A stretch of DNA of 64,000 bases from a virus (lineage: Duplodnaviria > Caudoviricetes). The notes beneath the pieces are model-generated. The model was not told where the DNA came from. It worked only from the letters and a program-made list of their open reading frames with translations, and searched no databases. The position numbers and the translations under genes were made by a program. This document shows positions 19,252-32,867 of the stretch, in pieces (position 1 is the first letter of the stretch; the number at the start of each line of letters is the position of its first letter). The DNA lies in IMG/VR virus record IMGVR_UViG_3300017913_001781, positions 58,951 through 122,950 of that record, one strand, 5' to 3'.

Positions 19252-20421
19252 ATGCCCGCTCTTAGTAAAGTACAACAAAGATTAATGGGAATGGCTTACG
19301 CTTATAAGAAGGGTGAGCTTGACTCTAAAGATGCTAGTCAAGAGGTTAAAGATCTCGCAGATTCTATGACTCTTAAGCAGCTTAAGAAATTTGCTGCAAC
19401 TAAACACGAAGGTTTACCAGAAAGAGTACCTGAAAATATTCAAGCCGGTCAAATTAATGGCATGGGTCCAATACAATTACCCGCTGACGGTTTACTTGGA
19501 TCTGGAGATGTACCTGCTGGTAGGGGCGACGCAGAAGAAGAATATAAAAAAAAGAAAAAGAAGATGGCAAACTTCGAAGAATTTATAAATGGGTTAAATA
19601 CTCAACCCAAATCAGGTGTTAATGAAACTAGATTTTACGCAATATTTCAAGGCGCAAAGCATGAAATTGAAGCAGATAGTCTATGGGCTGCAAAGCAAAA
19701 GGCTATCACAGATCTAAAGGTCAAAAAGAAAGATGTTGGATTATTGGCGATTGTAAATGCAGACGAACATGATGATTTTTCTAAGGGAAAGAAGGGACAA
19801 TTCCAATTTGAGTCTGATCAAGTCGACGAAGTTTATACCGGAACCGCATCTGATTTTAAATATGAATTTCCAAACCAATTTGAAGATGTCACGGGTTTTT
19901 CTGATAAAGCCATTAAAGGTATTAGAAAGAAAGGTAAAAATGGCTACGAAGTTAGAACTTCTACATATGCCGGTAAAGAATATATGGAAGCTGTTGGTAA
20001 ACAAATGGGTCTAGAACTTAAAAAGTTTGAGAAGCATAGTAATATGTGCATCACTGTTTATGAATCTGTTATCTCTGAAATCAGAACGTCTAGTTGGGGA
20101 GATTTAGAATATACAGAAGAAGATGTCAATAAAACTCACGGATGGTGTGGCACTTTAGCTAACGAATTAGGTGAAGATAAAGCTATGTTTTTAACTCATC
20201 AAGGAATTCATGACCTTCAAAAAAGACACATGGGTTTAACAGCTTGGGAAGCTTTAGCTGTTCTTAATTCAAAAGCAGGTAGACATGCGGCTGAAGCCTT
20301 TTTAGGAGGAGAAGCTGCCGCATCTGATACTACTTCAGCATTGATTTGGTACTTTGGTAGTAAAAGAAAGGTACAGCAAGCTGCTAAAGAAGAAGCAGAG
20401 CTTCAATTTCCAAGTAAGTAA
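19252..20421 (+). CDS. DUF3008-like N-terminal domain multidomain protein
   Basis: The N-terminus MPALSKVQQRLMGMA...SMTLKQLKKFAATKHEGLP matches the DUF3008 pattern. There is an internal MANFEEFING and VNE/VYE/ISE linkers. Confidence 0.6.
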   Translation: MPALSKVQQRLMGMAYAYKKGELDSKDASQEVKDLADSMTLKQLKKFAATKHEGLPERVPENIQAGQINGMGPIQLPADGLLGSGDVPAGRGDAEEEYKKKKKKMANFEEFINGLNTQPKSGVNETRFYAIFQGAKHEIEADSLWAAKQKAITDLKVKKKDVGLLAIVNADEHDDFSKGKKGQFQFESDQVDEVYTGTASDFKYEFPNQFEDVTGFSDKAIKGIRKKGKNGYEVRTSTYAGKEYMEAVGKQMGLELKKFEKHSNMCITVYESVISEIRTSSWGDLEYTEEDVNKTHGWCGTLANELGEDKAMFLTHQGIHDLQKRHMGLTAWEALAVLNSKAGRHAAEAFLGGEAAASDTTSALIWYFGSKRKVQQAAKEEAELQFPSK

Positions 20422-20493: not shown

Positions 20494-20645
20494 TGACAGA
20501 CAATAAAAAAGATAAAGATATTCTAAACGGCCTTAATTTGCGCCACGTCGCTCAAATTGTGCGCCGTAAGATGATTACAAAATCAGTGCCTTCTAAAAAG
20601 AATTACACTCGTAAGAAGAAGCATAAAAATCAAGACGATCAATGA
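20493..20645 (+). CDS. Small basic protein (ArfA-like C-terminal motif)
   Basis: MTDNKKDK...RRKMITKSVPSKKNYTRKKKHKN. The ATG at 20493 is preferred because the upstream TTG lies inside the terminator. Confidence 0.5.
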   Translation: MTDNKKDKDILNGLNLRHVAQIVRRKMITKSVPSKKNYTRKKKHKNQDDQ

Positions 20646-20929
20646 AGCTTTTAATGTGTACCGAATGTAAAGACATCTTTAATCTCAAGTATGAGACTAA
20701 AGCATGTACTTGTAAAAAAACTAAAGGACGTTATATTGATGAACTAAATGCAACATATAGCGGACCTGCTATTCCTATTGGTTTTGCAAATTCAAGCTTT
20801 TTAGAAGCAGCTAGTCGGCAAAATTTTATGAATATTATAGAGAGAGACTCTAAAGATGTTTGTTGTGCAGGCGAAGAATTCACAGCCTTTATTATTCCAG
20901 AGTGGGCCACCTCGCTTGAAAAAATTTAA
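20642..20929 (+). CDS. Small Cys-rich (Zn-ribbon) hypothetical protein
   Basis: CTECKD and CTCKK motifs. Confidence 0.6.
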   Translation: MKLLMCTECKDIFNLKYETKACTCKKTKGRYIDELNATYSGPAIPIGFANSSFLEAASRQNFMNIIERDSKDVCCAGEEFTAFIIPEWATSLEKI

Positions 20930-20944
20930 CACTTTTTAACATTT

Positions 20945-20987
20945 CAGATTTTCAGGTTGACCAGAATTTCGTATATTAGACCTGTAA
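20945..20987 (+). promoter_or_regulatory. Putative early (host sigma-type) promoter
   Basis: CAGATTTT...GTATATTAGA-CC-TGTAA, preceded by TTAACA x2 as at 20422. Confidence 0.6.
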
Positions 20988-21006
20988 CGTTAATCACAAA
21001 CAAACA

Positions 21007-21222
21007 ATGATTAGAGCAAAACAACCCAAAAACGAGATCGTTATCGACCTCACCGGCCCCGAAGGCAACGCCAATGTTATCCTCGCTTATGCTAACCGAT
21101 TTGCAAAGCAACTTGGCTATGACGCTGATAAGATTCTAGAAGAGATGACGAGCGGAGACTATGAAAATCTGATCAATGTCTTTGACTCTTACTTCGGTGA
21201 CTTTGTAATCCTTGAACGCTAA
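21007..21222 (+). CDS. Conserved small phage hypothetical protein (early)
   Basis: IDLTGPEGNA...MTSGDYENL pattern typical of a small phage protein family. Confidence 0.65.
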   Translation: MIRAKQPKNEIVIDLTGPEGNANVILAYANRFAKQLGYDADKILEEMTSGDYENLINVFDSYFGDFVILER

Positions 21223-21241
21223 TTAATAAATCTTAAAAGAT

Positions 21242-21625
21242 ATGAGTAACAAAATCAACTCCCTCGACCGCACTGCAGTCCGCCGTATTAATGACGATAT
21301 TCAATCTGCACTTGATGCAGTAGCTAAGCGTTATGGTGTTCAGATCAAAGTCGGTAACTCTCGCTTCTCTAATACTAATTGTACTACTAAGATTGACATC
21401 TCTACTGTTAATGAAGGCGGAACAGTTATGACCAAAGAAGCTACTGATTTTAATCGCTTTGCCTCTAGCTTTGGTATTACTAAGAAGTTGGGTGATACTT
21501 TTGACTTCCGCTACGATACTTATGAGATTGTCGGTCTCAAGCCTCGAAGCTCAAAATACCCGGTTTTGGCCAAGAACCTTTCTAACGGCAAGACCTTTAA
21601 GTTTCCTGCAAATGTCATCAACTAA
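21242..21625 (+). CDS. Hypothetical early protein
   Basis: 127-aa ORF with CGC/CGT-rich codon usage like its neighbours. Confidence 0.65.
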   Translation: MSNKINSLDRTAVRRINDDIQSALDAVAKRYGVQIKVGNSRFSNTNCTTKIDISTVNEGGTVMTKEATDFNRFASSFGITKKLGDTFDFRYDTYEIVGLKPRSSKYPVLAKNLSNGKTFKFPANVIN

Positions 21626-21767
21626 TCAACTCACGGAACGGCTCGCTCTCCTTCGTGGAGCGCGAGCTAATCTTGCTCAATCTATCTCAGTTATGGAAGA
21701 GCAATATGAAGAACTTAATGTTCAAATAGAAGAAACTTTAGAAGAAATTCAAAAACAAAAATCATGA
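21612..21767 (+). CDS. Small coiled-coil hypothetical protein
   Basis: MSSTNQLTERLALLRGARANLAQ.... The ATG at 21612 is in frame with track ORF 21459..21767 and avoids a long overlap. Confidence 0.55.
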   Translation: MSSTNQLTERLALLRGARANLAQSISVMEEQYEELNVQIEETLEEIQKQKS

Positions 21768-21901
21768 ATCAATACGCAATTAATCTCCTTAAAGAGGCGG
21801 GCTACTCACAGGCCACGATCGATCAAATGAACCCAAGTCAAATTCGAAACTTGGCTCTTGAAATTGAAGCCGAACTCGAACAATTTAAAATGCAATCATG
21901 A
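21764..21901 (+). CDS. Small hypothetical protein (45 aa, not in the ORF track)
   Basis: MNQYAINLLKEAGYSQATIDQMNPSQIRNLALEIEAELEQFKMQS, with ATGA overlaps on both sides. Confidence 0.6.
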   Translation: MNQYAINLLKEAGYSQATIDQMNPSQIRNLALEIEAELEQFKMQS

Positions 21902-22128
21902 TCTGTACAGTAAAAGATTTTGTAATGTTTGGCTTTAACTTTCCGTCAAACTTTGTTGAAAAAGCCTTTGAAAATCAAGGCGATTTGATGATTAATCATC
22001 TTAAAGAAAAATTTAATGCAGCTTACGATCAGGCTGGAAGTCGAGGTGCAATGAACACCTTTTATGCTCAGCTTGACGGTAAAAACCAATTTCTTTTGGA
22101 GAATTACGTTGCTGAATATTATTCTTGA
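21898..22128 (+). CDS. Hypothetical early protein
   Basis: 76-aa ORF coupled to the upstream ORF. Confidence 0.6.
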   Translation: MICTVKDFVMFGFNFPSNFVEKAFENQGDLMINHLKEKFNAAYDQAGSRGAMNTFYAQLDGKNQFLLENYVAEYYS

Positions 22129-22150: not shown

Positions 22151-22179
22151 AAAGGCAGTGAAACTTTCGCTGCCTTTTT
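22151..22179 (+). terminator. Rho-independent terminator overlapping a middle-type promoter
   Basis: AAAGGCAGTGAAACTTTCGCTGCCTTTTT inverted repeat plus T tract. Confidence 0.8.
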
Positions 22180-22186
22180 CATATAA
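22159..22186 (+). promoter_or_regulatory. Middle-type promoter TGAAAC-N17-TATAA
   Basis: Same spacing as the sites at 8667, 26760 and 44723. Confidence 0.6.
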
Positions 22187-22201
22187 ATAAAAAGTTATGA
22201 T

Positions 22202-22501
22202 ATGGCCAATAATATACTAGACCAAGCAAATAAGATTATCAACGAACGATCAGAAGAGAAAGAACGCCAATATGGACCTTTCGAAGAAGGCATGCGTCGA
22301 GCTGCCATGATTTGTTCAGGAATGACAGGTAAAGAGTGGAATGGCTCTGATATGTACGCTGCTCTTGTTGCACTTAAGCTTAGCAGACACTCTTATAACT
22401 ATAAAGAAGACAACCTTCTTGATGCTGTAGCGTATCTCGGTGCTCTTAACAATTATGTTGAAAAGCACGGCTATGGCGAATCAGAAGATCCAATTAAATA
22501 A
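22202..22501 (+). CDS. DUF6378-like small helical protein (dNTP-pyrophosphatase-associated family)
   Basis: ILDQANKIIN.R...RQYG....ALKLSR...KEDNLLDAVAY pattern. Confidence 0.7.
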   Translation: MANNILDQANKIINERSEEKERQYGPFEEGMRRAAMICSGMTGKEWNGSDMYAALVALKLSRHSYNYKEDNLLDAVAYLGALNNYVEKHGYGESEDPIK

Positions 22502-22503
22502 GT

Positions 22504-23577
22504 ATGAGTGAACTAAAGTACCTATCGGATTATATTGGCGATAAGTCGTCTCGTATTGGTATTGTAGCTCTTGTCGGTAAGTTAAGTCCTAAGATTAGCT
22601 CACATAAATCAGGCTGGGCATATCACTTGGCAAATCAATGCGTAAACGCAGGTTATGAGAACGTTGATGTAATCACAGATACCAATATAGATTGGTCAGA
22701 TTACGACGCAATTCTACTAGAACATGGTATGGAATTTAAAGGCACCTTCAATATTTTTGGCGGTGCTAATGACGATTTGTATCATCAAATTATGCGCATC
22801 TTTAGCTCTACTGAGTTGTACAGTTTACACCATGATATGCCATGTATTGGTACTTTAATTGAGCAGCGTCTTCATACTGGTACAGATCTATTCAAGACGC
22901 TTGAAGACAAGATCGAAGATATTAAACGAATCTGTGAAAATGAGATTCCAAGAATTGACTGTATTGAAAAGACAGACAAGCTTTGTTTTGGAGATAGTCA
23001 TTCGTTTAGCCAATACACTCCAGGTTACATGACTCAGCGTCACGATGGTTTAACTATGCATGGCGCTCTTAAGCGAGGGTTGGACACATATGTTTATCCA
23101 TGGATCAAGTCACTTCGAGTTTATTTAGGTAATATTGATGTTCGTCATCATTTAATGAGACAGGATAATCCTTCGGCTTCTGTTAAGACACTGTTGAAGA
23201 ACTATGAGAGTGAATTACTAAAGCTTCAAGAAAATGGAGTTGAAGAGATTGAAGTAGTTCATGTTTTACCTATTGAACATGAAAGCCGACCATTGCCGAA
23301 GACCGGTTACTACAAAGATACACCATTCTTTGGTACATGGGCTGAACGCACAAGTCTTACTAAAGAGATTAATTCGGGCATTGATGAAATGTGTGCGCGT
23401 AACAATTGGAATGTTTACAAACACCCTGACGTTTACTTTAATGGAGATGGAGAATTGACATTTGACGTAATGGAAAAACCTAAGTCAGTTCATATCGCTA
23501 GAGAGTATTATCGTTGGGATTTAGTTGAAAACTGTCCTAATAAAAAACTAATTAAACAAACTATGTCATTATTCTAA
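22504..23577 (+). CDS. SGNH-hydrolase-like protein in the putative DNA modification operon
   Basis: Block I FGDSHS, G-L-T-M-H-G, block III YLGNIDVRHH, and C-terminal KSVH. Confidence 0.55.
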   Translation: MSELKYLSDYIGDKSSRIGIVALVGKLSPKISSHKSGWAYHLANQCVNAGYENVDVITDTNIDWSDYDAILLEHGMEFKGTFNIFGGANDDLYHQIMRIFSSTELYSLHHDMPCIGTLIEQRLHTGTDLFKTLEDKIEDIKRICENEIPRIDCIEKTDKLCFGDSHSFSQYTPGYMTQRHDGLTMHGALKRGLDTYVYPWIKSLRVYLGNIDVRHHLMRQDNPSASVKTLLKNYESELLKLQENGVEEIEVVHVLPIEHESRPLPKTGYYKDTPFFGTWAERTSLTKEINSGIDEMCARNNWNVYKHPDVYFNGDGELTFDVMEKPKSVHIAREYYRWDLVENCPNKKLIKQTMSLF

Positions 23578-24803
23578 TGGAGATTACAACAACCAAATAT
23601 TATGACGAGTTTATTAGGTACTTTAACTTAGCTCTTGATCAGCAACAGAAAAGCAATCTAGGTCATACACCTCACCAAGATTCAGATATGAACGATCCAT
23701 TGATGGAGCAGATTGAGCTCTATGATGTGGTCGAACGTAAGTTTGCTGGCTTTAGTCAAATTGTAAACGATGTATTTTATGGCTGGACAGAGGACCATCC
23801 ATATTGGTCTAGAATGGAAGAAGGGTTAGTGACTTCTCAAAGACTTGAGGTTGCTAAGAACTGGACAGGCAAGCAAGATGTATTTGGACTTGAAGAGTGG
23901 CTGTATGTTTTTATTCTACACAGAGTCTGTGGATCTGCAATTAATTATGCTACTAAGCCAAGTGGTTACCATAACACTATCCTATTTGATCTGTGGCAAT
24001 CTGATACTATTGAACAGATGTGTGAGCAAGTTAAATCTCGTACGACTCCATTCTATACGTCAGTAGGTTATCAATTTCCAGCTTTTCCAAAGCCACCTCA
24101 ACCAGAAGTTCAAGAGAATGTTTTTGTAGGCATGTCTGGTTTTGAAGCACCTAAGTTTACATATAAAAGAGGTGGCGATTACTTCTTATGCGAGTTTGCT
24201 CCGCGATTAGCCCGCGATATGGCCAACTATTTGAGAAAGGGGCCAAAGAAAGACTTACGAGAATTAGGAGAGTGGATGTTTAAGTGGAACACTGATAATG
24301 GTTTAAGAGCTTATCGATTCCAATATGCAGCTGTGATTGCCGATGTTTGTGATTGGTTCCCAGAGTTTATGAATCGCGAGTCTATGTTTTATTATGGTAC
24401 CAATGCGGTTGAATGTATCGGTTATTTGGCCGACACTAAAGACGGTAAAGGTAAGAAGTCTGAGCCATTCTTGGACGCAGTGATGACTAAGATATACGAA
24501 GAGACTGGTTCGTTACCCTATAATGCAGAAGATGTAGCATGTGACTTTATTCGTTGGATAGAAAACTACATGAGACCGGGCGCTGATTACAATCACATCA
24601 ATATGGATACTCTGTGGAATAGTTCTACTATATTGGATCACCCATACGGCCGACAAAAGGCTATGCTTGATTTAGGATTGGTCGAAACATTCAATGGTAT
24701 GACTCACCACCCCTCGGATGATAAGATTATCTCAGAAGCTGGCTTGACGGTAGAACAATATAAAAACAAAGTCAAAAAACTATACGAATGTCAAACAGCG
24801 TAA
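23577..24803 (+). CDS. Divergent aGPT-Pplase1/5hmdU-kinase-helical-like DNA base modification protein (paralogue 1)
   Basis: DPLMEQIELYDVVERKFAGFS, FQYAAVIAD, YYGTNAVECI and AEDVACDFIRW align by eye with the DPIL..YRF.NV.R / F.AYQ...D / GPGA..G / N..CE..KY pattern of this HhH-glycosylase-like family. Confidence 0.55.
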   Translation: MEITTTKYYDEFIRYFNLALDQQQKSNLGHTPHQDSDMNDPLMEQIELYDVVERKFAGFSQIVNDVFYGWTEDHPYWSRMEEGLVTSQRLEVAKNWTGKQDVFGLEEWLYVFILHRVCGSAINYATKPSGYHNTILFDLWQSDTIEQMCEQVKSRTTPFYTSVGYQFPAFPKPPQPEVQENVFVGMSGFEAPKFTYKRGGDYFLCEFAPRLARDMANYLRKGPKKDLRELGEWMFKWNTDNGLRAYRFQYAAVIADVCDWFPEFMNRESMFYYGTNAVECIGYLADTKDGKGKKSEPFLDAVMTKIYEETGSLPYNAEDVACDFIRWIENYMRPGADYNHINMDTLWNSSTILDHPYGRQKAMLDLGLVETFNGMTHHPSDDKIISEAGLTVEQYKNKVKKLYECQTA

Positions 24804-25876
24804 AAGAAAAAGAAACTATTATTATGCCTTTGTTTGACGAGGAAGGTATCAACGTATTTCCAACTAATAATATTAAGTATCCTAAAACGGTTGAAGTGCC
24901 TTTAAAAAATGGCAAGCCTAAAGAATCTTGGATGCAAAAATGGAGCGAAGAAGAAAGAATAGAAAAGTTCTTTGAGTTTTGTCGAGTCTTTGACTTGAGA
25001 GAAGACGAGCTATTGAGAACAGATTACCAAATCTTCTCGCATCGTTTACATTGGCACGAGCACTCTTACTGTGATTTTATGAAGAAGATCACTGATAATA
25101 AAGAGAGGTTATGGTACACTCTTGTCTTCTCATTTACAAACGAACATTGGAAGACTTTAACTACTCTTGTTGATAAGGGTGAAGAGGCTCTTGCTGAACG
25201 TTTTAAGAATCACAGGCACGCTCGTAATGACCTATTTCAGATATACTATCCAAAAGGAACAAACGTTAAGGAGTGGATCTTAGAAGGTCCAAAGAAGGCG
25301 GCTGAAGATATGTGTCATGTCTTAGAGAATCTCGATCGACCATATACGATGATGGAGTTTGCTAAGATTATGGAAAAGTACTTTAAAGAAAAGCAAGACT
25401 TTAGAAGTCCTTTATATCCATGTAAGAATACTGCCAGATATTTGGCTATGACTTGGCCAGAATTGGTTGACCCTAACTCAGTTTTGTTTGGTGGAACTGG
25501 TCACTTTGACGGCTTACATCAGATTTTTGGAGGTCAATATCTTAATGGTAAAGTTAAGTATTCTATTGATGCTGATGGTCAATTTGTTTGTGAGAATAAG
25601 CATGCTGAAGAATGGATTAGACAGATGGAAGTTTTAGCCCAACATCCTTCTAATCCTATTAGTGAGCAAATGTGGTTGAACTTAGAAGACAAAACTTGTT
25701 TCTTCTATAAACATATTGCTATTAGCCATGGTATCAAGTCAGCAACTAAGAGAATTCCATATAATTGGATTTTTGATTCTCAGTTTGATTTGGCCAAACA
25801 CCCAAGCAATAGCGTGCAGCTTAACTCCAACACAACAAAATATTTATGGGCTAAAGATTACCCAGAAGAATTATAA
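24788..25876 (+). CDS. Divergent aGPT-Pplase1-like DNA base modification protein (paralogue 2)
   Basis: DELLRTDYQIFSHR, YPCKNTARYLAM.WPELVDPNSVLFGGTGHFDGL and LEDKTCFFYK parallel the motifs of 23577..24803. Confidence 0.5.
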   Translation: MSNSVKEKETIIMPLFDEEGINVFPTNNIKYPKTVEVPLKNGKPKESWMQKWSEEERIEKFFEFCRVFDLREDELLRTDYQIFSHRLHWHEHSYCDFMKKITDNKERLWYTLVFSFTNEHWKTLTTLVDKGEEALAERFKNHRHARNDLFQIYYPKGTNVKEWILEGPKKAAEDMCHVLENLDRPYTMMEFAKIMEKYFKEKQDFRSPLYPCKNTARYLAMTWPELVDPNSVLFGGTGHFDGLHQIFGGQYLNGKVKYSIDADGQFVCENKHAEEWIRQMEVLAQHPSNPISEQMWLNLEDKTCFFYKHIAISHGIKSATKRIPYNWIFDSQFDLAKHPSNSVQLNSNTTKYLWAKDYPEEL

Positions 25877-25877
25877 C

Positions 25878-26762
25878 ATGTCACATAATAAACATACCGA
25901 TCAATTAATTAATCAAGACTTAAATCTAATGATGCCTAATAGACAGGCGTGGTTGGATTTAGCTGGTGATTGGAAGGATCCCTTTGAAGCTCCTGAGATT
26001 CACGAGCACATGGGCTTTAATGTAGTTAGAGAAGACCTAATGGGCTTTGGATCTAAGTGTAGATTCGGAGACATTTTGGTTAGCACATGTGAGAAAGACA
26101 CTTTAGTCTATGTTCAACCTCGATATGGCTTTGCAGGTATCTCACTAGCATATTTAGCTAAAAAGTACAATAAGAAGTTGGTTTTGTTTAGTCCAAGCCA
26201 AAAAGAGATTTCAGATCACCAAGCTATTTGTGTAGAACGAGGGGCTGAGATGAAGTTTAGAAGAGTTGCAGCTATGCCTAACCTAAATCGTATTGCAAAA
26301 GCATGGGCTGAAGATAATAACGCATTCTTTATTCCATTGGGTTTGAAGCATGAACTTGTAACAGCTGCAGCTGTAAAGGTAGCATATGACCTAGCAGAAA
26401 AACATGGTTATCCAGAAGAAGTATGGTCAGCTATATCAACTGGCGTTTTGCAACGTTCATTGCAAATTGCATGGCCAGACGCCAAATTTAATGCAGTTGC
26501 AGTAGCTCGCAATATTCAAACAGGCGAAAGAGGCAAAGCTACAATATGGTCACACCCCAAGGCATTTAACCAAAATGTAAATGTTGAATATTATCCTCCA
26601 TTCCCATCAGCTCTTAACTACGACGCTAAAGCTTGGGAATTTATGGTTAAGCATGGCAGCCCTGGTGCTTGGTTTTGGAATGTCGGCGGTGACCCTAAAC
26701 CAGAACAAGAAGAAACTAAAAAGAAAGTCGACTCACAAAGAGAGTGGGGAGAAGTTCGTTGA
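25878..26762 (+). CDS. PLP-dependent fold-type II enzyme (Trp-synthase-beta superfamily), probably DNA modification
   Basis: VVREDLMGFGSKCR (PLP Lys), SAISTGV (phosphate loop), NYDAKAW and FWNVG. The ATG at 25878 follows the upstream stop. Confidence 0.75.
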   Translation: MSHNKHTDQLINQDLNLMMPNRQAWLDLAGDWKDPFEAPEIHEHMGFNVVREDLMGFGSKCRFGDILVSTCEKDTLVYVQPRYGFAGISLAYLAKKYNKKLVLFSPSQKEISDHQAICVERGAEMKFRRVAAMPNLNRIAKAWAEDNNAFFIPLGLKHELVTAAAVKVAYDLAEKHGYPEEVWSAISTGVLQRSLQIAWPDAKFNAVAVARNIQTGERGKATIWSHPKAFNQNVNVEYYPPFPSALNYDAKAWEFMVKHGSPGAWFWNVGGDPKPEQEETKKKVDSQREWGEVR

Positions 26763-26787
26763 AACTTTAACACATAAACCAATAAAA
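26760..26787 (+). promoter_or_regulatory. Middle-type promoter TGAAAC-N17-TAAAA (dUTPase/polymerase)
   Basis: Motif and spacing match. Confidence 0.5.
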
Positions 26788-26792
26788 AAATC

Positions 26793-27257
26793 ATGGCAAA
26801 CTCAGATAATAAATGTGCAGATCTAGAAGTACAAGACTTCTACACTGACGTAAAAGACACGCTCGGCCTTGTATATAACAAACAGATCGAGCTACAAAGC
26901 AGACTCGGATTTAACTTCGAGAATTGGACCCTTAAAGAAATTGCAGATTTCTGGTGTGTTAACAAACATGCTATGAGCGATGAACTTAACGAAATGTTCG
27001 ATGCTCTTGGTGGAGTTAATGATGGTATTGCTTCAGCAGCATGGAAATACTGGAAAAAAGACAATGCTAAAGCGGCTACTATGACAGTAGCTGACCTTTC
27101 TAAAGAAGATCGCCTCGAACTATTTTACGAGTGGATCGATGGTCTTCACTTCTACATGAATTTTGCTATTTCAATTGGCATGACAGCAGAAGATATAGTA
27201 AACCTCTACATGGCTAAGAACGCAGAGAATCACGATCGCCAAAACCGAGGATACTAA
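26793..27257 (+). CDS. Dimeric all-alpha dUTPase/dCTPase (T4 gp56-like)
   Basis: DELNEMFDA, WKYWK, EWIDGLHF and YMAKNAENHDRQNRGY. Confidence 0.85.
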   Translation: MANSDNKCADLEVQDFYTDVKDTLGLVYNKQIELQSRLGFNFENWTLKEIADFWCVNKHAMSDELNEMFDALGGVNDGIASAAWKYWKKDNAKAATMTVADLSKEDRLELFYEWIDGLHFYMNFAISIGMTAEDIVNLYMAKNAENHDRQNRGY

Positions 27258-28684
27258 TGCTACTTGATATTGAACAAAGAGAAAATGAGCTTATTGTAAG
27301 CTACTATAATCGAGAAGGTAAAGTTGATTTCAAGAGATATCCTATTTCTCAATTTGAGAATTGGGTTGTCACAGATGAAAAAGATCGCTACAAGCATCCA
27401 CAGATCCTAAATTGGGATGGTCGACCTGTTAAAAAGAATCGTTCACGTTCTTATAATAAGTTTTCACTGATCTACTTTATGGATAATCTTCCAGAAAAGG
27501 ATCGAGAAGAAATCTTTGAGTTTAATGTACCTCGTACTTATTATGTAGATATTGAGACTGAGATTGTAGATGGTTTTCCTAAACCAGAGGAAGCTAAATC
27601 TAGGATCCTCACGTTCTCTATAATCACACCCGAAAGAAAGGCTATTGTACTAGGTCTAGAAGATCTTTCGGCTGAACAGATTGCTTCTATTGAGAAGGAC
27701 ACTAACGATCACTTTGAAGGTTATGATCAAGATTGGGAGTTTAGCTATTATAAGTTTAAGAATGAGTACGAGATGCTCTATAACTTCTTGCATAAGTTCT
27801 TGCCTAAGTTTCCTATGATGACAGGCTGGAACTTCATCAACTATGACTGGCAATATATCGTTAATCGATGTAAGCATTTGCAAATCGATTTGACTGAAGT
27901 AGCTATCACCGGTTCGCTTGATCGTAATGATAGTCGACCACTTCATATGGGTATTCTAGACTATATGCAATTATACGATAAGTATGATCGCTCGGTTAAA
28001 GTAAAAGAGTCTAATACACTTGATTATGTTTCTGGTCAAGTTCTTAATGTTAAGAAGATTAAGTATCAGGGTGGTCTACAAGATCTATACGAGAATGACT
28101 TTAAGAAATATGTTTTCTATAACGTAGTTGACTCTATTCTTGTTTATTATATTGATGAGAAGCTAAAAAGCATGGAGGTCTTGTTAACGCTTGCTACTAT
28201 TACAAAAATGCCTCTTTATAAAGCAGCTTCTCCTGTGGCTATGACAGAAGCTTTGATTGCTCGTAAATTGGTTGAGCAAAATAAACGAGTTGGCGTTGAA
28301 TACGATAAAGCAGATAGTCAAAAAGACGGTAAGTATGCTGGCGCATTTGTTAAAGAGCCTATTTCTGGTTATTATAGCGGAGTTAGTGCTTTTGACTTCG
28401 CCTCACTGTATCCCTCTATTATGAGACAGTTTAATATTTCACCTGACTCATATGTCGAAATGATACCTACTACACAGATAAATAGTCGTCGAAAGGATGA
28501 AAGTGTCATTGTGTGCGAAAACGGAGTTGTTTATGAAAAAGAAGACTCAATTCTGAAGAAGATTCTCTCTGATCTTTATGCTCAACGTAAACAATATAAG
28601 AAAACTTCGTACGATTATTATGAAAAGGCAAGAGAGCTGAAAAAAAAATTAAATGAGAAAAAAGTCGGAGAGTCAGCTGCCTAA
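27257..28684 (+). CDS. DNA polymerase family B, N-terminal subunit (3'-5' exonuclease and palm motif A), split gp43A
   Basis: ExoI DIETE, ExoII GWNFINYDW, ExoIII YNVVD, YAGAFVKEP and motif A FDFASLYPS. It ends after the first fingers helix. Confidence 0.9.
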   Translation: MLLDIEQRENELIVSYYNREGKVDFKRYPISQFENWVVTDEKDRYKHPQILNWDGRPVKKNRSRSYNKFSLIYFMDNLPEKDREEIFEFNVPRTYYVDIETEIVDGFPKPEEAKSRILTFSIITPERKAIVLGLEDLSAEQIASIEKDTNDHFEGYDQDWEFSYYKFKNEYEMLYNFLHKFLPKFPMMTGWNFINYDWQYIVNRCKHLQIDLTEVAITGSLDRNDSRPLHMGILDYMQLYDKYDRSVKVKESNTLDYVSGQVLNVKKIKYQGGLQDLYENDFKKYVFYNVVDSILVYYIDEKLKSMEVLLTLATITKMPLYKAASPVAMTEALIARKLVEQNKRVGVEYDKADSQKDGKYAGAFVKEPISGYYSGVSAFDFASLYPSIMRQFNISPDSYVEMIPTTQINSRRKDESVIVCENGVVYEKEDSILKKILSDLYAQRKQYKKTSYDYYEKARELKKKLNEKKVGESAA

Positions 28685-28775: not shown

Positions 28776-29774
28776 ATGTCATTATTTAAAGATAGAATAG
28801 AATACAAACCATTTGAATACCCGGTCTATTATACAGAAGGCTGGTTAAAGCAAGCTCAAGCTTTCTGGCTTCACACAGAGATCTCTATGCAAGGAGATGT
28901 AAAAGACTGGAACGAAAACTTAATGCCACATGAGAAAAATCTTGTAGGTAATATTCTTTTGGGTTTTGCTCAAACCGAATGTGCCGTATCTGATTATTGG
29001 ACGACTATGGTTACGCAATGGTTTCCTAAGCATGAGATTAAGCAAATGGCTATGATGTTCGGTTCACAAGAGACTATTCATGCAACAGCATATTCATATC
29101 TAAATGAAACATTGGGATTAGAGGATTTCTCTGGTTTCTTGCACGAACCGGCAACCGCTAATAAATTTGAGATGCTGACCAGCACTGAGGCTGATTGGAC
29201 TCATGAGGATTTGGCTAAAGATGCCAGAGCAAGAAAGGATGTTGCTAGATCATTGGCTATTTTTTCAGCTTTTGCCGAAGGCGTTTCGCTTTATTCTTCG
29301 TTTGCGGTTCTTTACTCATTCCAAATGAGAAACCTTTTGAAGGGCATTGGTCAACAGATGAAGTGGTCAGTTCGCGATGAGTCATTGCACTCTAAGATGG
29401 GTTGCCAACTTTTCCGCCACATGTGTGAAGAATATGAGGAGCTAAAGGAGTTAGTTAGACCAGAGGTTGAACACGCTGCTGAATTAATGGTTCAAATGGA
29501 ACATAAGTTTATTGATAAGATGTTTGAGATGGGTGATCTAGACAATATGAAGGCTGCTGATCTTAAAAACTTTATTCTTAAAAGAGCTAATGAAAAGTTG
29601 GTCGAATTGGGTTACGAGCCTAAAATGCAATATGATGAAAAATCAGCATCTGAACTTGATTGGTTTTATCATTTAACCGGAGGACATACTCACACCGATT
29701 TCTTTGCTGTTAGACCAACTGATTATTCTAAAGCAGGTGAAGATGAAAATTGGGACGAAGATGATATATTCTAA
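28776..29774 (+). CDS. nrdB: Ribonucleotide reductase class Ia beta subunit
   Basis: ETIHATAY (radical Tyr), EGVSLYSSF, RDESLH and DFFAVRPTDYSK. Confidence 0.95.
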   Translation: MSLFKDRIEYKPFEYPVYYTEGWLKQAQAFWLHTEISMQGDVKDWNENLMPHEKNLVGNILLGFAQTECAVSDYWTTMVTQWFPKHEIKQMAMMFGSQETIHATAYSYLNETLGLEDFSGFLHEPATANKFEMLTSTEADWTHEDLAKDARARKDVARSLAIFSAFAEGVSLYSSFAVLYSFQMRNLLKGIGQQMKWSVRDESLHSKMGCQLFRHMCEEYEELKELVRPEVEHAAELMVQMEHKFIDKMFEMGDLDNMKAADLKNFILKRANEKLVELGYEPKMQYDEKSASELDWFYHLTGGHTHTDFFAVRPTDYSKAGEDENWDEDDIF

Positions 29775-29819: not shown

Positions 29820-31643
29820 ATGGAAGAAGAAACAATTAATCACGGACAAGAATTGGGTTGGGAATTAGGTGTAGACTTTCCAACTTGGGGAAATACAGAG
29901 ATTTATGTTAAAACAATTAGCAGAGGTTATCTTTTAAGCGGAGAAACACCTAAAGACGCCTACTGGAGAGTAGCAACTGCAATTGCAAAAAGATTACGTA
30001 AGCCAGAATTGGCTTCTAAGTTTTTTGATTATATTTGGAAAGGCTGGCTAAATTTGGCTTCTCCAGTTCTTTCGAATACGGGAACTGAAAGAGGTTTGCC
30101 TATTTCATGCTTTGGTATTGATGTAGCCGACTCAATTCATGATATCGGTAATAAGAATCTTGAAATGATGCTTTTAGCTAAGCATGGCGGTGGTGTTGGC
30201 ATTGGCGTAAATCAAATCAGACCAGCTGGAGCGACTATTTCTCAAAATGGCACTTCAGATGGTGTTGTACCTTTTTGTAAGATTTATGATTCCGCTATTT
30301 TGGCCACAAACCAAGGTTCAGTTCGTCGCGGAGCAGCTTCTGTTAATATCGATATAGAACATGATGATTTTTGGGAATGGCTAGAAATTAGAGAGCCTAA
30401 AGGAGATGTTAATCGACAATGCTTGAATATGCACCAATGTGTTGTGGTTTCTGATGGATTTATGCAACGTATTGAAGCCGGTGAGAAAGAGGCTAGAAAA
30501 CGTTGGGCTGCAGTTCTTCGCAAGCGTAGAGCAACTGGAGAACCATATATCATGTTTAAAGGAAATGTAAATAACGTTAACCCAGACGCGTATAAAAAGA
30601 ATGGACTCAAGGTCTATATGACTAATATCTGTTCGGAGATTACTCTTCATACGGATGAGTCTCATTCTTTTGTCTGCTGTTTGAGCTCTGTTAATTTAGC
30701 TAAATATAACGAATGGAAAGACACTGATCTAATTTACACGGCAACGTGGTTCTTAGATGGTGTTCTTGAAGAGTTTATTACTAAGGCTAAATATATGAGA
30801 GGCTTTGAAAATGCAGTTAGATCTGCAGAGAAAGGTCGAGCAATTGGTCTTGGAGTTCTTGGATGGCATACATATCTACAAGACAATAATATTCCCTTTG
30901 AAGGTCTAATGTCGCAGTTTGAGACTAGAAAGATTTTTAGCCAGATCAAGACAGAATCTGAAAAGGCAAGTAGAGATCTAGCTCACGAGTATGGCGAACC
31001 ACTTTGGTGTGTTGGTACGGGTATGAGAAACTCACACTTAAGAGCAGTTGCTCCAACGGTTTCCAACTCTAAGCTTAGTGGTAACGTTTCGCCAGGCATT
31101 GAACCATGGGCGGCAAATGTATTTACAGAACAAACGGCTAAGGGTACTTTCATCAGAAAGAATAAGTCTTTGGAACGTGCGCTAGATCACCTAGGTAAAA
31201 ATGATAAAGAAACATGGGATCAAATTCTAATTGATGGTGGATCAGTTCAAGGTCTTAATTGGATCAAGGATTATTATGTGCATGCAGGTGAATCGCATGA
31301 TTCTGAATGGGGATTACCGATTCACTCTGATAAATTGAAGGAAGCTCCACAAGCAACGGCAGATAACTTTATTCCAATGGCTGATGTTTATAAGACGTTT
31401 AAAGAGATAAATCAACTTGAATTAGTTAAGCAAGCTGGCGTCAGACAACAATATGTTGATCAATCAGTTTCACTAAACTTAGCATTTCCAAAAGAAGCAA
31501 GTCCTAAGTTTATTAACCAAGTTCACTTAGAAGCCTATAATCAAGGCATTAAGACTCTATATTACATGAGAACGGAAAGTGTATTAAGAGGAGATATCGC
31601 CACTGCAGCAACAGACCCGGATTGTCTAAGCTGTGATGGCTAA
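29820..31643 (+). CDS. nrdA: Ribonucleotide reductase class Ia alpha subunit (no ATP cone)
   Basis: ASPVLSN, PISCF, TNICSEI, VCCLSS, APTVSNS, KTLYY and C-terminal CLSCDG. Confidence 0.95.
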   Translation: MEEETINHGQELGWELGVDFPTWGNTEIYVKTISRGYLLSGETPKDAYWRVATAIAKRLRKPELASKFFDYIWKGWLNLASPVLSNTGTERGLPISCFGIDVADSIHDIGNKNLEMMLLAKHGGGVGIGVNQIRPAGATISQNGTSDGVVPFCKIYDSAILATNQGSVRRGAASVNIDIEHDDFWEWLEIREPKGDVNRQCLNMHQCVVVSDGFMQRIEAGEKEARKRWAAVLRKRRATGEPYIMFKGNVNNVNPDAYKKNGLKVYMTNICSEITLHTDESHSFVCCLSSVNLAKYNEWKDTDLIYTATWFLDGVLEEFITKAKYMRGFENAVRSAEKGRAIGLGVLGWHTYLQDNNIPFEGLMSQFETRKIFSQIKTESEKASRDLAHEYGEPLWCVGTGMRNSHLRAVAPTVSNSKLSGNVSPGIEPWAANVFTEQTAKGTFIRKNKSLERALDHLGKNDKETWDQILIDGGSVQGLNWIKDYYVHAGESHDSEWGLPIHSDKLKEAPQATADNFIPMADVYKTFKEINQLELVKQAGVRQQYVDQSVSLNLAFPKEASPKFINQVHLEAYNQGIKTLYYMRTESVLRGDIATAATDPDCLSCDG

Positions 31644-32117: not shown

Positions 32118-32867
32118 ATGAAACTAGTAGTTAATCGTATTGACCAACACGCGCTTTCCTCATTTATTAATCGAGTTAAGCTTATTGATTCTTTCATTTA
32201 TATGAAAATGGATCAAAATCGTACAACGTCTGCAGTCTATCTTCCACAGCGAGACGCAGTTAAGTATCACTCAGTTGAGACAAATCATTTGTTTCAAATT
32301 GATGAAGCATCTTGGACTCAAGGTGATAAAGAAATGAAGATTGCGTTCTTCGATGGAGGTAAAGTCATTGAAGCCATTAAGCACTTTGAAAGTGATGCTA
32401 TTCAAGGTGAAATTGAGTTTGTAGAAAATGAAGAAGACTTTGTAGCTTCTACCTTCCGCATTTTTAACGATGAACTCGAGATTACTCTTGCATGTTCTGA
32501 GCCTTCTCTTGGTTACAAAGATCTAACCAAAGATCAAATCTCTGCCATCTTTAGTAAAGACGGAAGTAAGTTTAACTTTGAACTCGACACTCACATGATC
32601 GGTAAAGTAAAAAATCTGTTTGGCCTTGATAAAGATGAGACATTCTCTATTAATGCAAACGGTAGTGGAGTTAATGTTAAGGGTAAGACATTTAGTGTTG
32701 TTATCAACCCGGAATCAACGGGTAATGGCGACGTAACGGTTTACAAAAAGTATTTGTCCCTACTTGACAAAGAAGAACAAAATGTTTATGTGTCTGATTC
32801 AAAGGTAGTGTTCTCGTCTAACGAGTCTGAAACACTGCTAACAATCTCTACTTGTCAGACTGCATAA
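32118..32867 (+). CDS. Sliding clamp (T4 gp45-like)
   Basis: 249-aa alpha/beta protein of clamp size, directly upstream of the polymerase C-terminal subunit. Confidence 0.65.
   Translation: MKLVVNRIDQHALSSFINRVKLIDSFIYMKMDQNRTTSAVYLPQRDAVKYHSVETNHLFQIDEASWTQGDKEMKIAFFDGGKVIEAIKHFESDAIQGEIEFVENEEDFVASTFRIFNDELEITLACSEPSLGYKDLTKDQISAIFSKDGSKFNFELDTHMIGKVKNLFGLDKDETFSINANGSGVNVKGKTFSVVINPESTGNGDVTVYKKYLSLLDKEEQNVYVSDSKVVFSSNESETLLTISTCQTA

What the first reader, a model, noticed from the sequence alone, without database searches (positions are those of the whole stretch)
22202..27257. Candidate novel DNA base hypermodification operon (DUF6378 + SGNH-like + two aGPT-Pplase1-like paralogues + PLP enzyme + gp56-like dNTPase) feeding into the DNA polymerase
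Seen: six tightly packed genes behind a middle-type promoter, ending at the polymerase. The 408-aa and 362-aa proteins share a parallel motif series (DPLM/DELL; FQYAAVIAD/YPCKNTARY; YYGTNA/FGGTGH; AEDVAC/LEDKTC), so they look like paralogues. Established: thymidine-hypermodifying phages (ViI, M6, PhiW-14, SP10) use HhH-glycosylase-like aGPT-Pplase proteins to act on 5-hydroxymethyluracil DNA. ViI and M6 also use PLP enzymes to tailor the attached amino acid, and gp56-type pyrophosphatases purge the canonical dNTP. Inference: this phage makes a hypermodified base by a variant route. It has two very divergent paralogues plus an SGNH acyl-esterase/transferase-like protein, which I do not recall as part of those pathways. 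No P-loop 5hmdU kinase, dUMP hydroxymethylase or radical SAM gene is in this window, so the chemistry may be new.
Basis: partly seen in the sequence, partly recalled or inferred. Interest (0 to 1): 0.88.

Follow-up and report, generated by a model that had tools for sequence, protein, structure and literature searches.

The report
Kinase-less hydroxymethylcytosine DNA hypermodification cassette
An uncultured marine T4-like jumbo phage carries, just upstream of its DNA polymerase, enzymes related to those that attach amino acids to thymine in other phages' DNA, but here they are tied to T4-style hydroxymethylcytosine and have an esterase-fold partner where the usual DNA kinase would be, so the DNA probably carries a decorated cytosine that has not been described.

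Summary

The PLP enzyme is in the same PHROG as the M6 gp52 DNA decarboxylase, and its Lys is invariant. The 357-aa protein has a weakly T4 beta-glucosyltransferase (BGT) N-domain-like N-terminal domain and a clear SGNH C-terminal domain. It is fused to the 408-aa type in other phages. The 154-aa protein is a T4 gp56 dCTPase homologue.

The base is probably 5-hydroxymethylcytosine, not 5-hydroxymethyluracil. Related genomes have ThyA or ThyX plus a second thymidylate-synthase (TS) family gene with the cytosine-specifying Asp, often next to the cassette. None has a dUMP hydroxymethylase, and a single-sequence probe found no 5-hmdU DNA kinase.

The chemistry and the role of the SGNH protein are inferred. 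This scan has found the same cassette before on other genomes, with the same reading. I rate it a new variant of a known kind.

The parts
22151..22189 (+). Terminator-like hairpin (AAAGGCAG...CTGCCTTT plus T-run, 22151-22179), then TATAAATA (22182-22189). It marks the start of a new transcription unit. The promoter class is unverified.
   Evidence: Read from the sequence. TATAAATA is not enriched in the window. The promoter scan is no richer than shuffles.
22202..22501 (+). DUF6378 protein, 99 aa, role unknown. It travels with the cassette only in the closest lineage.
   Evidence: Pfam PF19905 2.1e-10. Found in 15 of 80 related loci, always directly upstream of P1.
22504..23577 (+). P1, 357 aa. 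The N-terminal alpha/beta domain (about residues 1-150) weakly resembles the T4 beta-glucosyltransferase N-domain. The C-terminal domain (about 153-346) is an SGNH hydrolase/acyltransferase fold with invariant GDSHS (S165), GNID (N210) and H330. Proposed to replace the 5-hmdU DNA kinase step, or to tailor the adduct.
23577..24803 (+). P2, 408 aa. HhH-glycosylase-fold protein of the aGPT-Pplase/AADT superfamily, nearest to clade 1 (HMUDK_hel type). Invariant D256, G274, E318 and C322 (EDVxCD).
24788..25876 (+). P3, 362 aa. Distant paralogue of P2 over its C-terminal half, with invariant E300, D301 and C304 (EDKTC). Candidate second transferase. The true start may be an internal Met, because homologues cover only about 86% of the ORF.
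   Evidence: hhalign P2 family vs P3 family E 2e-6. Invariant residues. Atlas neighbours carry HMUDK_hel/ADDT (a lead only). Present in 70 of 80 related loci beside P2.
25878..26762 (+). Fold-type II PLP enzyme, 294 aa, of the M6 gp52 family of DNA-adduct decarboxylases. Lys60 is the putative internal aldimine residue.
   Evidence: phrog_7093 at 2.6e-39; M6 gp52 hits the same PHROG at 2.2e-159. PALP 1.5e-5, below the gathering score. Lys60 aligns with M6 gp52 K36 and is invariant in 26 of 26 sequences. K36 is named in PMC8989533.
26793..27257 (+). gp56-like all-alpha NTP pyrophosphatase, 154 aa. Probably a dCTPase/dUTPase that purges canonical dCTP.
   Evidence: tblastn: 33-40% identity over 97% to T-even dCTPases, including T4 (1e-17); 1446 records, nearly all T4-like. 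Pfam dUTPase_2 at 34.4 bits, cut-off 22.9. phrog_173.
27257..28684 (+). N-terminal half (exonuclease plus start of palm) of a split family B DNA polymerase. Its start overlaps the stop of the dCTPase gene.
   Evidence: Pfam DNA_pol_B_exo1 and DNA_pol_B, positions 23-137 of 453. phrog_2062. The C-terminal half is at 32869-34074.

Best explanation
The cluster is a post-replicative DNA hypermodification cassette of a marine T4-like jumbo phage. It most likely acts on 5-hydroxymethylcytosine.

**Proposed scheme**
1. The gp56-like dCTPase removes dCTP. A cytosine-specific TS-family hydroxymethylase supplies hmdCTP. That gene is seen in related genomes and is presumably in the missing 59% of this one. 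The polymerase then builds hmC DNA, as in T4.
2. P1 binds hmC in DNA through its BGT-N-like domain. Its SGNH domain (Ser165/Asn210/His330) either esterifies the 5-hydroxymethyl group, giving the leaving group that the P-loop 5-hmdU DNA kinase provides in thymidine systems, or trims an ester on the adduct. P1 works together with P2, to which it is fused in other phages.
3. P2 and/or P3 flip the base into an HhH-glycosylase-type pocket. The Glu-x3-Cys cysteine attacks C6, the leaving group departs, and an amino acid or other amine/hydroxyl nucleophile adds to the exocyclic methylene, as in the amino-acid:DNA transferases M6 gp51 and PaMx11 gp46.
4. The gp52-like PLP enzyme tailors the attached amino acid, probably by decarboxylation.

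**Shown here:** gene content, folds, conserved catalytic residues, paralogy, the fusion, synteny, and co-occurrence with Asp-type TS genes.

**Inferred:** the substrate base, the order of steps, the acyl-activation role of P1, and the identity of the adduct.
For: **P2 and P3**
- Glu-x3-Cys is invariant in both families (E318/C322, E300/C304). It has the same spacing as the catalytic E243/C247 of gp46 and gp51 (PMC8989533 and PMC11472151).
- P2-P3 paralogy: E 2e-6.
- P2 vs M6 gp55-like clade 1: E 6.3e-4 with collinear motifs. The known-related clade 1 vs clade 2 pair gives only E 0.029 with the same method.

**PLP enzyme**
- Same PHROG as M6 gp52, with an invariant Lys.

**P1**
- 8 of 24 family members hit the T4 BGT N-domain family.
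- P1-P2 fusion proteins exist: P0287 at 1e-53, and the 795-aa phrog_17781.

**Module behaviour**
- P1, P2, P3 and PLP co-occur in at least three gene orders.

**Pointers to hmC**
- The 154-aa protein is a T4 gp56 dCTPase homologue.
- Related records G001, G002, G005, G006 and G008 each have a TS-family gene with Asp at the Asn177 position and a gp42-like Cys motif.
- In at least 10 loci that gene sits next to the cassette, in the block NTP-PPase, DUF1599-like, TS-like, P2-P3-PLP-P1.
- G001 also has ThyA, and G002 and G005 have ThyX, so thymine is made normally.
- The cultured gp42-encoding Aeromonas T4-like phage 44RR2.8t carries a P1-type fusion protein, and other Aeromonas T4-like phages also match P1.
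Against: - No TS-family gene lies in this 123-kb fragment (41% complete), so the hmC link rests on relatives that are 52-87% identical.
- Neither P2 nor P3 reaches any Pfam ADDT or HMUDK_hel threshold; only 1 of 50 P2 relatives reaches E 1e-3.
- Every characterised member of the superfamily acts on 5-hmdU derivatives, none on cytosine.
- An Asp-type TS enzyme could be a dCMP methylase rather than a hydroxymethylase.
- A third lineage has P2+P3 with an HhH-GPD gene but no P1 or PLP. Its complete 174-kb genome (G004) has no TS, ThyX or gp56 homologue. The P2/P3 pair therefore does not always depend on a phage hydroxymethylase.
- The BGT-N resemblance is below threshold in every single protein, and the N-domain was not searched on its own.
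- No acyl donor is evident for the proposed SGNH activation.
- P3 was not folded.
Confidence: 0.6

Rival explanations
1. The cassette hypermodifies thymidine through 5-hmdU in DNA, as in ViI, M6, PaMx11 and PhiW-14, with a variant activation step.
For: All experimentally characterised aGPT-Pplase/AADT enzymes and gp52-type PLP decarboxylases act on 5-hmdU-derived bases (PMC8989533). The solved structure most similar to P2 is a 5-PmdU glycinyltransferase. T4 gp56 also has dUTPase activity (my own knowledge). A dCMP deaminase is present in the genome.
Against: No Asn-type dUMP hydroxymethylase appears in any of 10 related records. The TS-like genes found carry Asp, as in gp42. ThyA or ThyX is retained. 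No 5-hmdU DNA kinase was found with an M6 gp54 probe (a weak test). The P1 N-domain resembles the hmC-specific T4 BGT. No Tet/JBP hit was found (the control was silent).
Confidence: 0.12
2. P2 and P3 are DNA glycosylase-like repair or anti-host enzymes that excise or only bind bases. The SGNH and PLP genes are unrelated neighbours, and no new base is made.
Against: The best structural match is the transferase, not a glycosylase. The invariant Glu-x3-Cys is the transferase signature. P1 is physically fused to P2-type domains. The PLP enzyme belongs to the DNA-adduct decarboxylase PHROG. The four genes keep together through at least three rearrangements.
Confidence: 0.08
3. The cassette works on free nucleotides before replication, or on another polymer such as RNA, not on DNA after replication.
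For: It lies among nucleotide-pool genes (dCTPase, RNR, and the TS-like gene in relatives). SGNH and PLP enzymes usually act on small molecules.
Against: The HhH base-flipping fold and the relation to enzymes shown to act on polymeric DNA (PMC8989533, PMC11472151). The BGT-like domain of P1 belongs to an enzyme that acts on DNA.
Confidence: 0.06

Closest known systems
Thymidine hypermodification pathways of phages M6, ViI, PaMx11, PhiW-14 and SP10 (dUMP hydroxymethylase, 5-hmdU DNA kinase, aGPT-Pplase clades 1 and 2 / amino-acid:DNA transferase, gp52/gp226 PLP decarboxylase)
   Same: A paralogous pair of HhH-fold aGPT-Pplase-type proteins with Glu-x3-Cys. A PLP enzyme of the same PHROG as M6 gp52, with the same Lys. 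A clustered layout next to nucleotide-pool genes. The logic of modification after replication.
   Different: No Pfam-level membership for P2 or P3. A single-sequence probe found no P-loop kinase. A BGT-N-like/SGNH protein stands in its place and is fused to the P2 type in some phages. The linked TS-family gene is of the cytosine (Asp) type and thymidylate synthase is retained, so the base is probably C, not T.
PaMx11 gp46 (PUGT), 5-PmdU glycinyltransferase, PDB 8Z2M
   Different: 7% sequence identity. P2 is 120 residues longer. The residue after the Glu is Asp (ED) in P2 and P3, and Thr (ET) in gp46, where Glu and Thr hold the metal that contacts thymine O4. No residue-level superposition was available.
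T4 hydroxymethylcytosine system (gp42 dCMP hydroxymethylase, gp56 dCTPase, alpha- and beta-glucosyltransferases)
   Same: A gp56 homologue directly upstream of the polymerase. gp42-like Asp-type TS genes in relatives. The P1 N-domain weakly resembles the BGT N-domain. T4-like replication genes all around.
   Different: No glucosyltransferase reaches the family's cut-off in this fragment or in four related genomes. In P1, an SGNH domain stands where T4 BGT has its sugar-donor (C-terminal) domain, and transferase-like plus PLP enzymes are added.
Aeromonas phage 44RR2.8t ORF233c (795 aa, hypothetical) and phrog_17781
   Same: The N-terminal 330 residues are homologous to P1 (35% identity, E 8e-56). 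It lies in a cultured T4-like phage that encodes gp42.
   Different: Its C-terminal half is not detectably P2-like (hhalign E 0.44). No P3 or PLP gene stands beside it. Its function has never been studied.

Membership tests
aGPT-Pplase / amino-acid:DNA transferase superfamily (Pfam ADDT PF18724, HMUDK_hel PF18723) | Match to the Pfam family models above the gathering score | tested here: not met
   P2 and P3 give no Pfam hit even at E<=10. Only 1 of 50 P2 relatives hits ADDT, at E 1e-3. Six-frame searches of the genome with both HMMs find nothing.
aGPT-Pplase / amino-acid:DNA transferase superfamily | HhH-glycosylase-like two-bundle helical fold, closest to a solved AADT | tested here: met
aGPT-Pplase / amino-acid:DNA transferase superfamily | Conserved catalytic Cys with a Glu four residues upstream | tested here: met
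   E318 and C322 are invariant in 50 P2 relatives. E300 and C304 are invariant in 28 P3 relatives. The motif is aligned to DIEHxLCEF of M6 gp55-like proteins. The E243/C247 roles come from PMC8989533 and PMC11472151. Structural equivalence of the residues was not checked atom by atom.
aGPT-Pplase / amino-acid:DNA transferase superfamily | Genomic partnership with a P-loop 5-hmdU DNA kinase | tested here: inconclusive
   The M6 gp54 probe found nothing in this fragment or in four related genomes, three of them at least 91% complete. This is a single-sequence probe with no positive control.
aGPT-Pplase / amino-acid:DNA transferase superfamily | Partnership with a dUMP (Asn-type) hydroxymethylase | tested here: not met
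   The non-canonical TS-family genes in G001, G002, G005, G006, G008 and in most cassette-adjacent copies carry Asp, as in 44RR gp42. The only Asn-type TS seen is a canonical ThyA-like gene (G003), and the SH-Ab 15599 dUMP hydroxymethylase used as a comparison has Asn.
aGPT-Pplase / amino-acid:DNA transferase superfamily | Transfer of an amino acid or amine to a 5-substituted pyrimidine in DNA | not testable with these tools
   Needs biochemistry or nucleoside mass spectrometry.
SGNH/GDSL hydrolase-acyltransferase fold (P1 residues about 153-346) | SGNH fold with block I Ser, block III Asn and block V His | tested here: met
T4 beta-glucosyltransferase N-terminal domain (PF09198) | Match to the family model, or a shared fold of the N-domain | tested here: inconclusive
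   8 of 24 P1 family members hit PF09198, the most frequent family, but the best E is 0.002 and all hits are below the cut-off. One weak hit in G005 falls inside its P1 homologue. P0001 itself does not hit. The N-domain was not folded or searched alone.
M6 gp52 / ViI gp226-type PLP decarboxylases acting on DNA adducts (phrog_7093; fold-type II PLP) | Family profile match and conserved Schiff-base Lys | tested here: met
   phrog_7093 at 2.6e-39 over profile positions 7-278 of 279, and M6 gp52 hits the same PHROG. Lys60 aligns with gp52 K36 and is invariant in 26 of 26 sequences. Pfam PALP scores only 25 bits against a cut-off of 35. The type of reaction was not tested.
T4 gp56 dCTPase/dUTPase (all-alpha NTP pyrophosphatase) | Full-length similarity to gp56 and a Pfam dUTPase_2 match | tested here: met
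   33-40% identity over 87-97% of the protein to T-even dCTPases, including T4. PF08761 at 34.4 bits, cut-off 22.9. Substrate preference was not tested.
dCMP hydroxymethylase (gp42-type TS family) as source of the substrate base | Presence in the same genome, catalytic Cys, and Asp at the TS Asn177 position | tested here: inconclusive
   Absent from this 41%-complete fragment. Present, with the Cys motif and the Asp, in five related records and adjacent to the cassette in at least 10 loci. Hydroxymethylase and methylase cannot be told apart here.

The most novel reading that the evidence does not exclude
P1 is a DNA-hmC O-acyltransferase: a T4 BGT-type hmC-DNA-binding domain whose sugar-donor half has been replaced by an SGNH acyl-transfer domain. 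It activates 5-hydroxymethylcytosine as an ester. The Cys-dependent P2/P3 transferases then swap the ester for an amino acid, and the PLP enzyme decarboxylates it. The product would be the first amino-acid-derived hypermodified cytosine, made without any DNA kinase, and would be widespread in marine T4-like phages.
Probability: 0.3. Interest if true: 0.9.

Novelty: new variant of a known kind. Interest (0 to 1): 0.72.

Why it matters
Known pathways that build amino-acid or polyamine adducts on phage DNA all start from 5-hydroxymethyluracil and need a DNA kinase. The known decorations of hydroxymethylcytosine are sugars (my own knowledge).

This cassette would join the two worlds: thymidine-type transferase chemistry applied to T4-type hmC DNA, with an esterase-fold enzyme in the activation or tailoring step.

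It is abundant. There are 922 protein clusters for P2 and 556 IMG/VR loci, and the window itself comes from seawater. An undescribed base may therefore be common in ocean viromes. That would affect restriction and CRISPR evasion, sequencing bias, and enzyme tools for hmC labelling.

It is directly testable on hmC DNA from glucosylation-deficient T4, and a cultured Aeromonas phage carries the P1-type protein.

Tried and rejected
- **P2 vs P3 as single sequences.** BLASTP: nothing.
- **Cultured-phage records.** Megablast of the whole cluster and tblastn of P2 found no match.
- **PDB by sequence.** phmmer of P2 and P3, and the P1 family profile, found nothing usable.
- **Single M6 proteins.** hhalign of the P2 and P3 families against M6 gp51 or gp55 gave no meaningful hit. 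Against a local clade 2 profile there was also none. The method is weak: the known-related clade 1 and clade 2 profiles score only E 0.029 against each other.
- **PLP enzyme vs M6 gp52.** BLASTP aligns only a short C-terminal piece, E 0.009.
- **Tet/JBP family in five related genomes.** Nothing, but the control genomes were silent too.
- **M6 gp54 kinase probe.** Nothing, with no positive control.
- **T4 BGT family in the genomes.** Only one sub-threshold hit.
- **DUF6378 vs the DUF1599-like neighbour of the other lineage.** No similarity.
- **Complex prediction of P1 with P2.** No verdict.
- **The look-up of sequencing runs.** No RNA holder listed.
- **Promoter class.** The consensus scan is at chance level and TATAAATA is not enriched.
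- **Literature.** Searches for an AADT-type system on hydroxymethylcytosine found no paper. The library lacks most subscription journals.
- **Atlas neighbours.** Used only as leads.

Full report
**Setting.** The window is bases 58951-122950 of a 122,950-bp IMG/VR virus record that CheckV rates 41% complete. Its family B polymerase is nearest to uncultured huge phages (47% identity) and to Lak, PAU and T4-type phages. The replication genes around it are T4-like: RNR, UvsX-like RecA and a split polymerase. The stretch is held almost whole by one seawater metagenome, probably its source.

**Observation.** One search confirms seven co-directional ORFs from 22202 to 28684. They are separated by at most 30 nt or overlap by 1-16 nt. 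Upstream, the sequence shows a terminator-like hairpin with a T-run (22151-22179) and then TATAAATA. The 'middle promoter' could not be verified. The easy family calls hold:
- DUF6378.
- A fold-type II PLP enzyme.
- A gp56-like NTP pyrophosphatase.
- The N-terminal half of PolB.

**The two unknowns (P2, 408 aa; P3, 362 aa).** Neither has a Pfam or PHROG hit, and BLASTP does not relate them to each other.

Both are very widespread and well conserved in metagenomes: 922 and 397 clusters, mostly 60-90% identical. A HMMER search of 1.84 billion representatives gave 141 more distant P2 relatives. An alignment of 50 of them (A1) shows invariant G119, S120, G130, N133, F248, D256, G274, E318 and C322. 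The P3 family (A2) has invariant E300, D301 and C304, among many others.

Profile-profile comparison relates the C-terminal halves of the two families (probability 89%, E 2e-6). The result is stable with a larger P3 alignment. The paralogy claim is therefore right, although it is invisible to pairwise BLAST.

**Fold of P2.** AlphaFold2 with A1 gave pLDDT 93.3.
- Against BFVD, the closest hit (56% identical) is named an amino-acid:DNA-transferase-domain protein. The weaker hits are named aGPT-Pplase clade 1, 5-hmdU DNA kinase helical domain (PhiW-14, SP10, phiRSL1) and endonuclease III.
- Foldseek against the PDB was weak.

**Catalytic motif.** Lee et al. (PMC8989533) showed that a conserved Cys and a nearby Glu are essential in M6 gp51 and ViI gp247. 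The gp46 structure paper (PMC11472151) assigns Cys247 as the C6 nucleophile. It also shows Glu243 and Thr244 holding the metal that contacts thymine O4.
- M6 gp51 reads E-x3-C at 243-247.
- P2 has E318-D-V-A-C322, and P3 has E300-D-K-T-C304. The spacing is the same and the residues are invariant in both families.
- M6 gp55-like clade 1 proteins read DIEHxLCEF.
- My local hhalign aligns P2 to clade 1 over 162 columns (E 6.3e-4), with the F..D, G.NA/GPGA and E..C blocks collinear. As a calibration, clade 1 against clade 2 scores only E 0.029 by the same method.

P2 and P3 are thus a new, divergent branch of the aGPT-Pplase superfamily, nearer to clade 1. They are not members of the Pfam families by score.

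**The PLP enzyme.** It hits phrog_7093 at 2.6e-39 over the whole profile. M6 gp52, the experimentally shown decarboxylase of glycinyl-thymine in DNA, is in the same PHROG. Lys60 aligns with gp52 K36 and is invariant in 26 sequences.

**P1 (357 aa).**
- It belongs to phrog_13881 and to the N-terminal part of the 795-aa phrog_17781.
- GDSHS (Ser165) and His330 are invariant, and Asn210 of GNID is nearly invariant, even across lineages only about 30% identical.
- The N-terminal alpha/beta domain filled none of the structure hit lists. A first-reader note on another genome called it 'BGT-N', so I scanned 24 diverse family members. Eight hit the T4 beta-glucosyltransferase family PF09198 (best E 0.002). 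It is the most frequent family, ahead of Lipase_GDSL with three hits. A sub-threshold BGT hit in genome G005 falls inside its P1 homologue. This is suggestive but below threshold.
- Several representatives are fusions of a P1-type and a P2-type domain. An example is P0287: residues 7-332 are 33% identical to P1 (E 1e-53), and residues 361-700 are P2-like.
- This resembles the known fusion of a P-loop kinase with the HMUDK_hel domain in SP10 gp186 (named).
- A structure-based complex prediction of P1 with P2 gave no verdict.

**Which base?**
- The 154-aa protein is 33-40% identical over nearly its whole length to T-even dCTPases, T4 gp56 included.
- The fragment has no TS-family gene. Its relatives do.
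- G001 (256 kb, terminal repeats, 100% complete) has the same gene order, at 52-87% amino-acid identity. It has a canonical ThyA plus a second, divergent TS-family gene.
- In that second gene the catalytic Cys motif is DFVCT. The position of TS Asn177 is Asp (LTFD), as in dCMP hydroxymethylase gp42 of phage 44RR (RND). A dUMP hydroxymethylase (SH-Ab 15599) and a canonical ThyA have Asn there.
- G002, G005, G006 and G008 also have Asp-type genes. G002 and G005 keep ThyX.
- In a second lineage the pathway lies in one block: PRA-PH-type NTP pyrophosphatase, DUF1599-like ('nucleotide modification associated domain 1', weak), gp42-type TS gene, sometimes dCMP deaminase, then P2-P3-PLP-P1.
- Cultured Aeromonas T4-like phages carry a P1-type fusion protein, and 44RR2.8t, which I checked, also encodes gp42.
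- No glucosyltransferase reaching its family threshold was found.

Taken together, thymine is made normally and the modified base is most likely a 5-hydroxymethylcytosine derivative. That Asp marks cytosine specificity in the TS family is established knowledge from T4 gp42. Whether these enzymes are hydroxymethylases or methylases cannot be told from sequence here.

**Module behaviour.**
- Among 80 IMG/VR loci, P2 is accompanied by P3 in 70 and by P1 and PLP in 38 each. Many loci are truncated.
- The genes occur in the orders P1-P2-P3-PLP, P2-P3-PLP-P1, P1-P2-PLP and P2-PLP-P1. This is the signature of a functional unit.
- DUF6378 and gp56-polymerase adjacency are confined to the closest lineage.

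**Caveats.**
- A third lineage has HhH-GPD-P2-c7-P3, with homing endonucleases nearby but no P1 or PLP. Its complete genome G004 has no TS, ThyX or gp56 homologue. The P2/P3 pair can therefore work in another context.
- The hmC link for this window rests on relatives.
- The activation role of P1 is an inference with no identified acyl donor.
- P3 and the P1 N-domain were not folded.

**Prior knowledge and novelty.**
- I found no paper that ties aGPT-Pplase-type enzymes to hydroxymethylcytosine or to an SGNH partner.
- Earlier follow-up reports of this scan on other genomes describe the same 'kinase-less hydroxymethylcytosine hypermodification cassette'. I had reached the hmC reading before consulting them (note). 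The finding is therefore a repeat within this scan, but it is not in the literature I could search.

I rate it a new variant of a known kind.

Noticed in passing
window 27257-28684 and 32869-34074: The family B DNA polymerase is split into two genes. They are separated by nrdB (28776-29774), nrdA (29820-31643) and a 249-aa ORF with no Pfam hit (32118-32867). Split gp43 is annotated in Aeromonas phage 44RR2.8t (43B fragment seen), but there the halves are not separated by RNR genes as far as I saw.
   Followed up: partly
L035 (G004), L025, L029, L042 and similar loci: A third lineage carries HhH-GPD (PF00730, 7.5e-10), then P2, a 186-aa unknown and P3, without P1 or PLP. The complete 174-kb genome G004 has no ThyA, ThyX, TS-like or gp56 homologue. 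What P2 and P3 act on there is unexplained.
   Followed up: partly
L025:10260-13346 (- strand): A 1028-aa protein combining an FkbM methyltransferase, an HtrL_YibB domain and a GT2 glycosyltransferase domain recurs a few kb from the P2/P3 pair in 13 loci of that lineage.
   Followed up: no
L028:2925-3515, L035:4834-5337 and relatives: SegE-type GIY-YIG and T5orf172 homing-endonuclease genes are inserted around and between the cassette genes in many related loci. This explains the variable gaps between P2 and P3.
   Followed up: no
L174 (Aeromonas phage 44RR2.8t, record 160422-164402): The P1-type fusion protein ORF233c (795 aa) lies directly after a phage-encoded sodium:solute symporter homologue (ORF234c) and motA. 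The C-terminal 460 residues of ORF233c have no detectable family.
   Followed up: partly
G001:C1:6-524 and 255882-256442: The canonical thymidylate synthase gene of the complete relative G001 runs across the ends of the record, within or at its direct terminal repeats.
   Followed up: no
G000:C1:25219-25623 (outside the window, upstream): A dCMP deaminase homologue (46% identical to the copy next to the cassette in other lineages) lies far from the cassette in this genome.
   Followed up: no
window 24788-24930: The first 40 or so residues of the 362-aa ORF are not conserved in homologues, which are typically about 330 aa and cover 86% of it. The real start may be an internal Met, which would remove the 16-nt overlap with the 408-aa gene.
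   Followed up: no
window 19252-20421 and L003:1088-1846: A DUF3008 protein precedes the cassette region here and in the closest relatives. Those relatives have an extra HhH-GPD gene between it and DUF6378. It is missing from this window, where only small ORFs (20642-22128) fill the space.
   Followed up: partly
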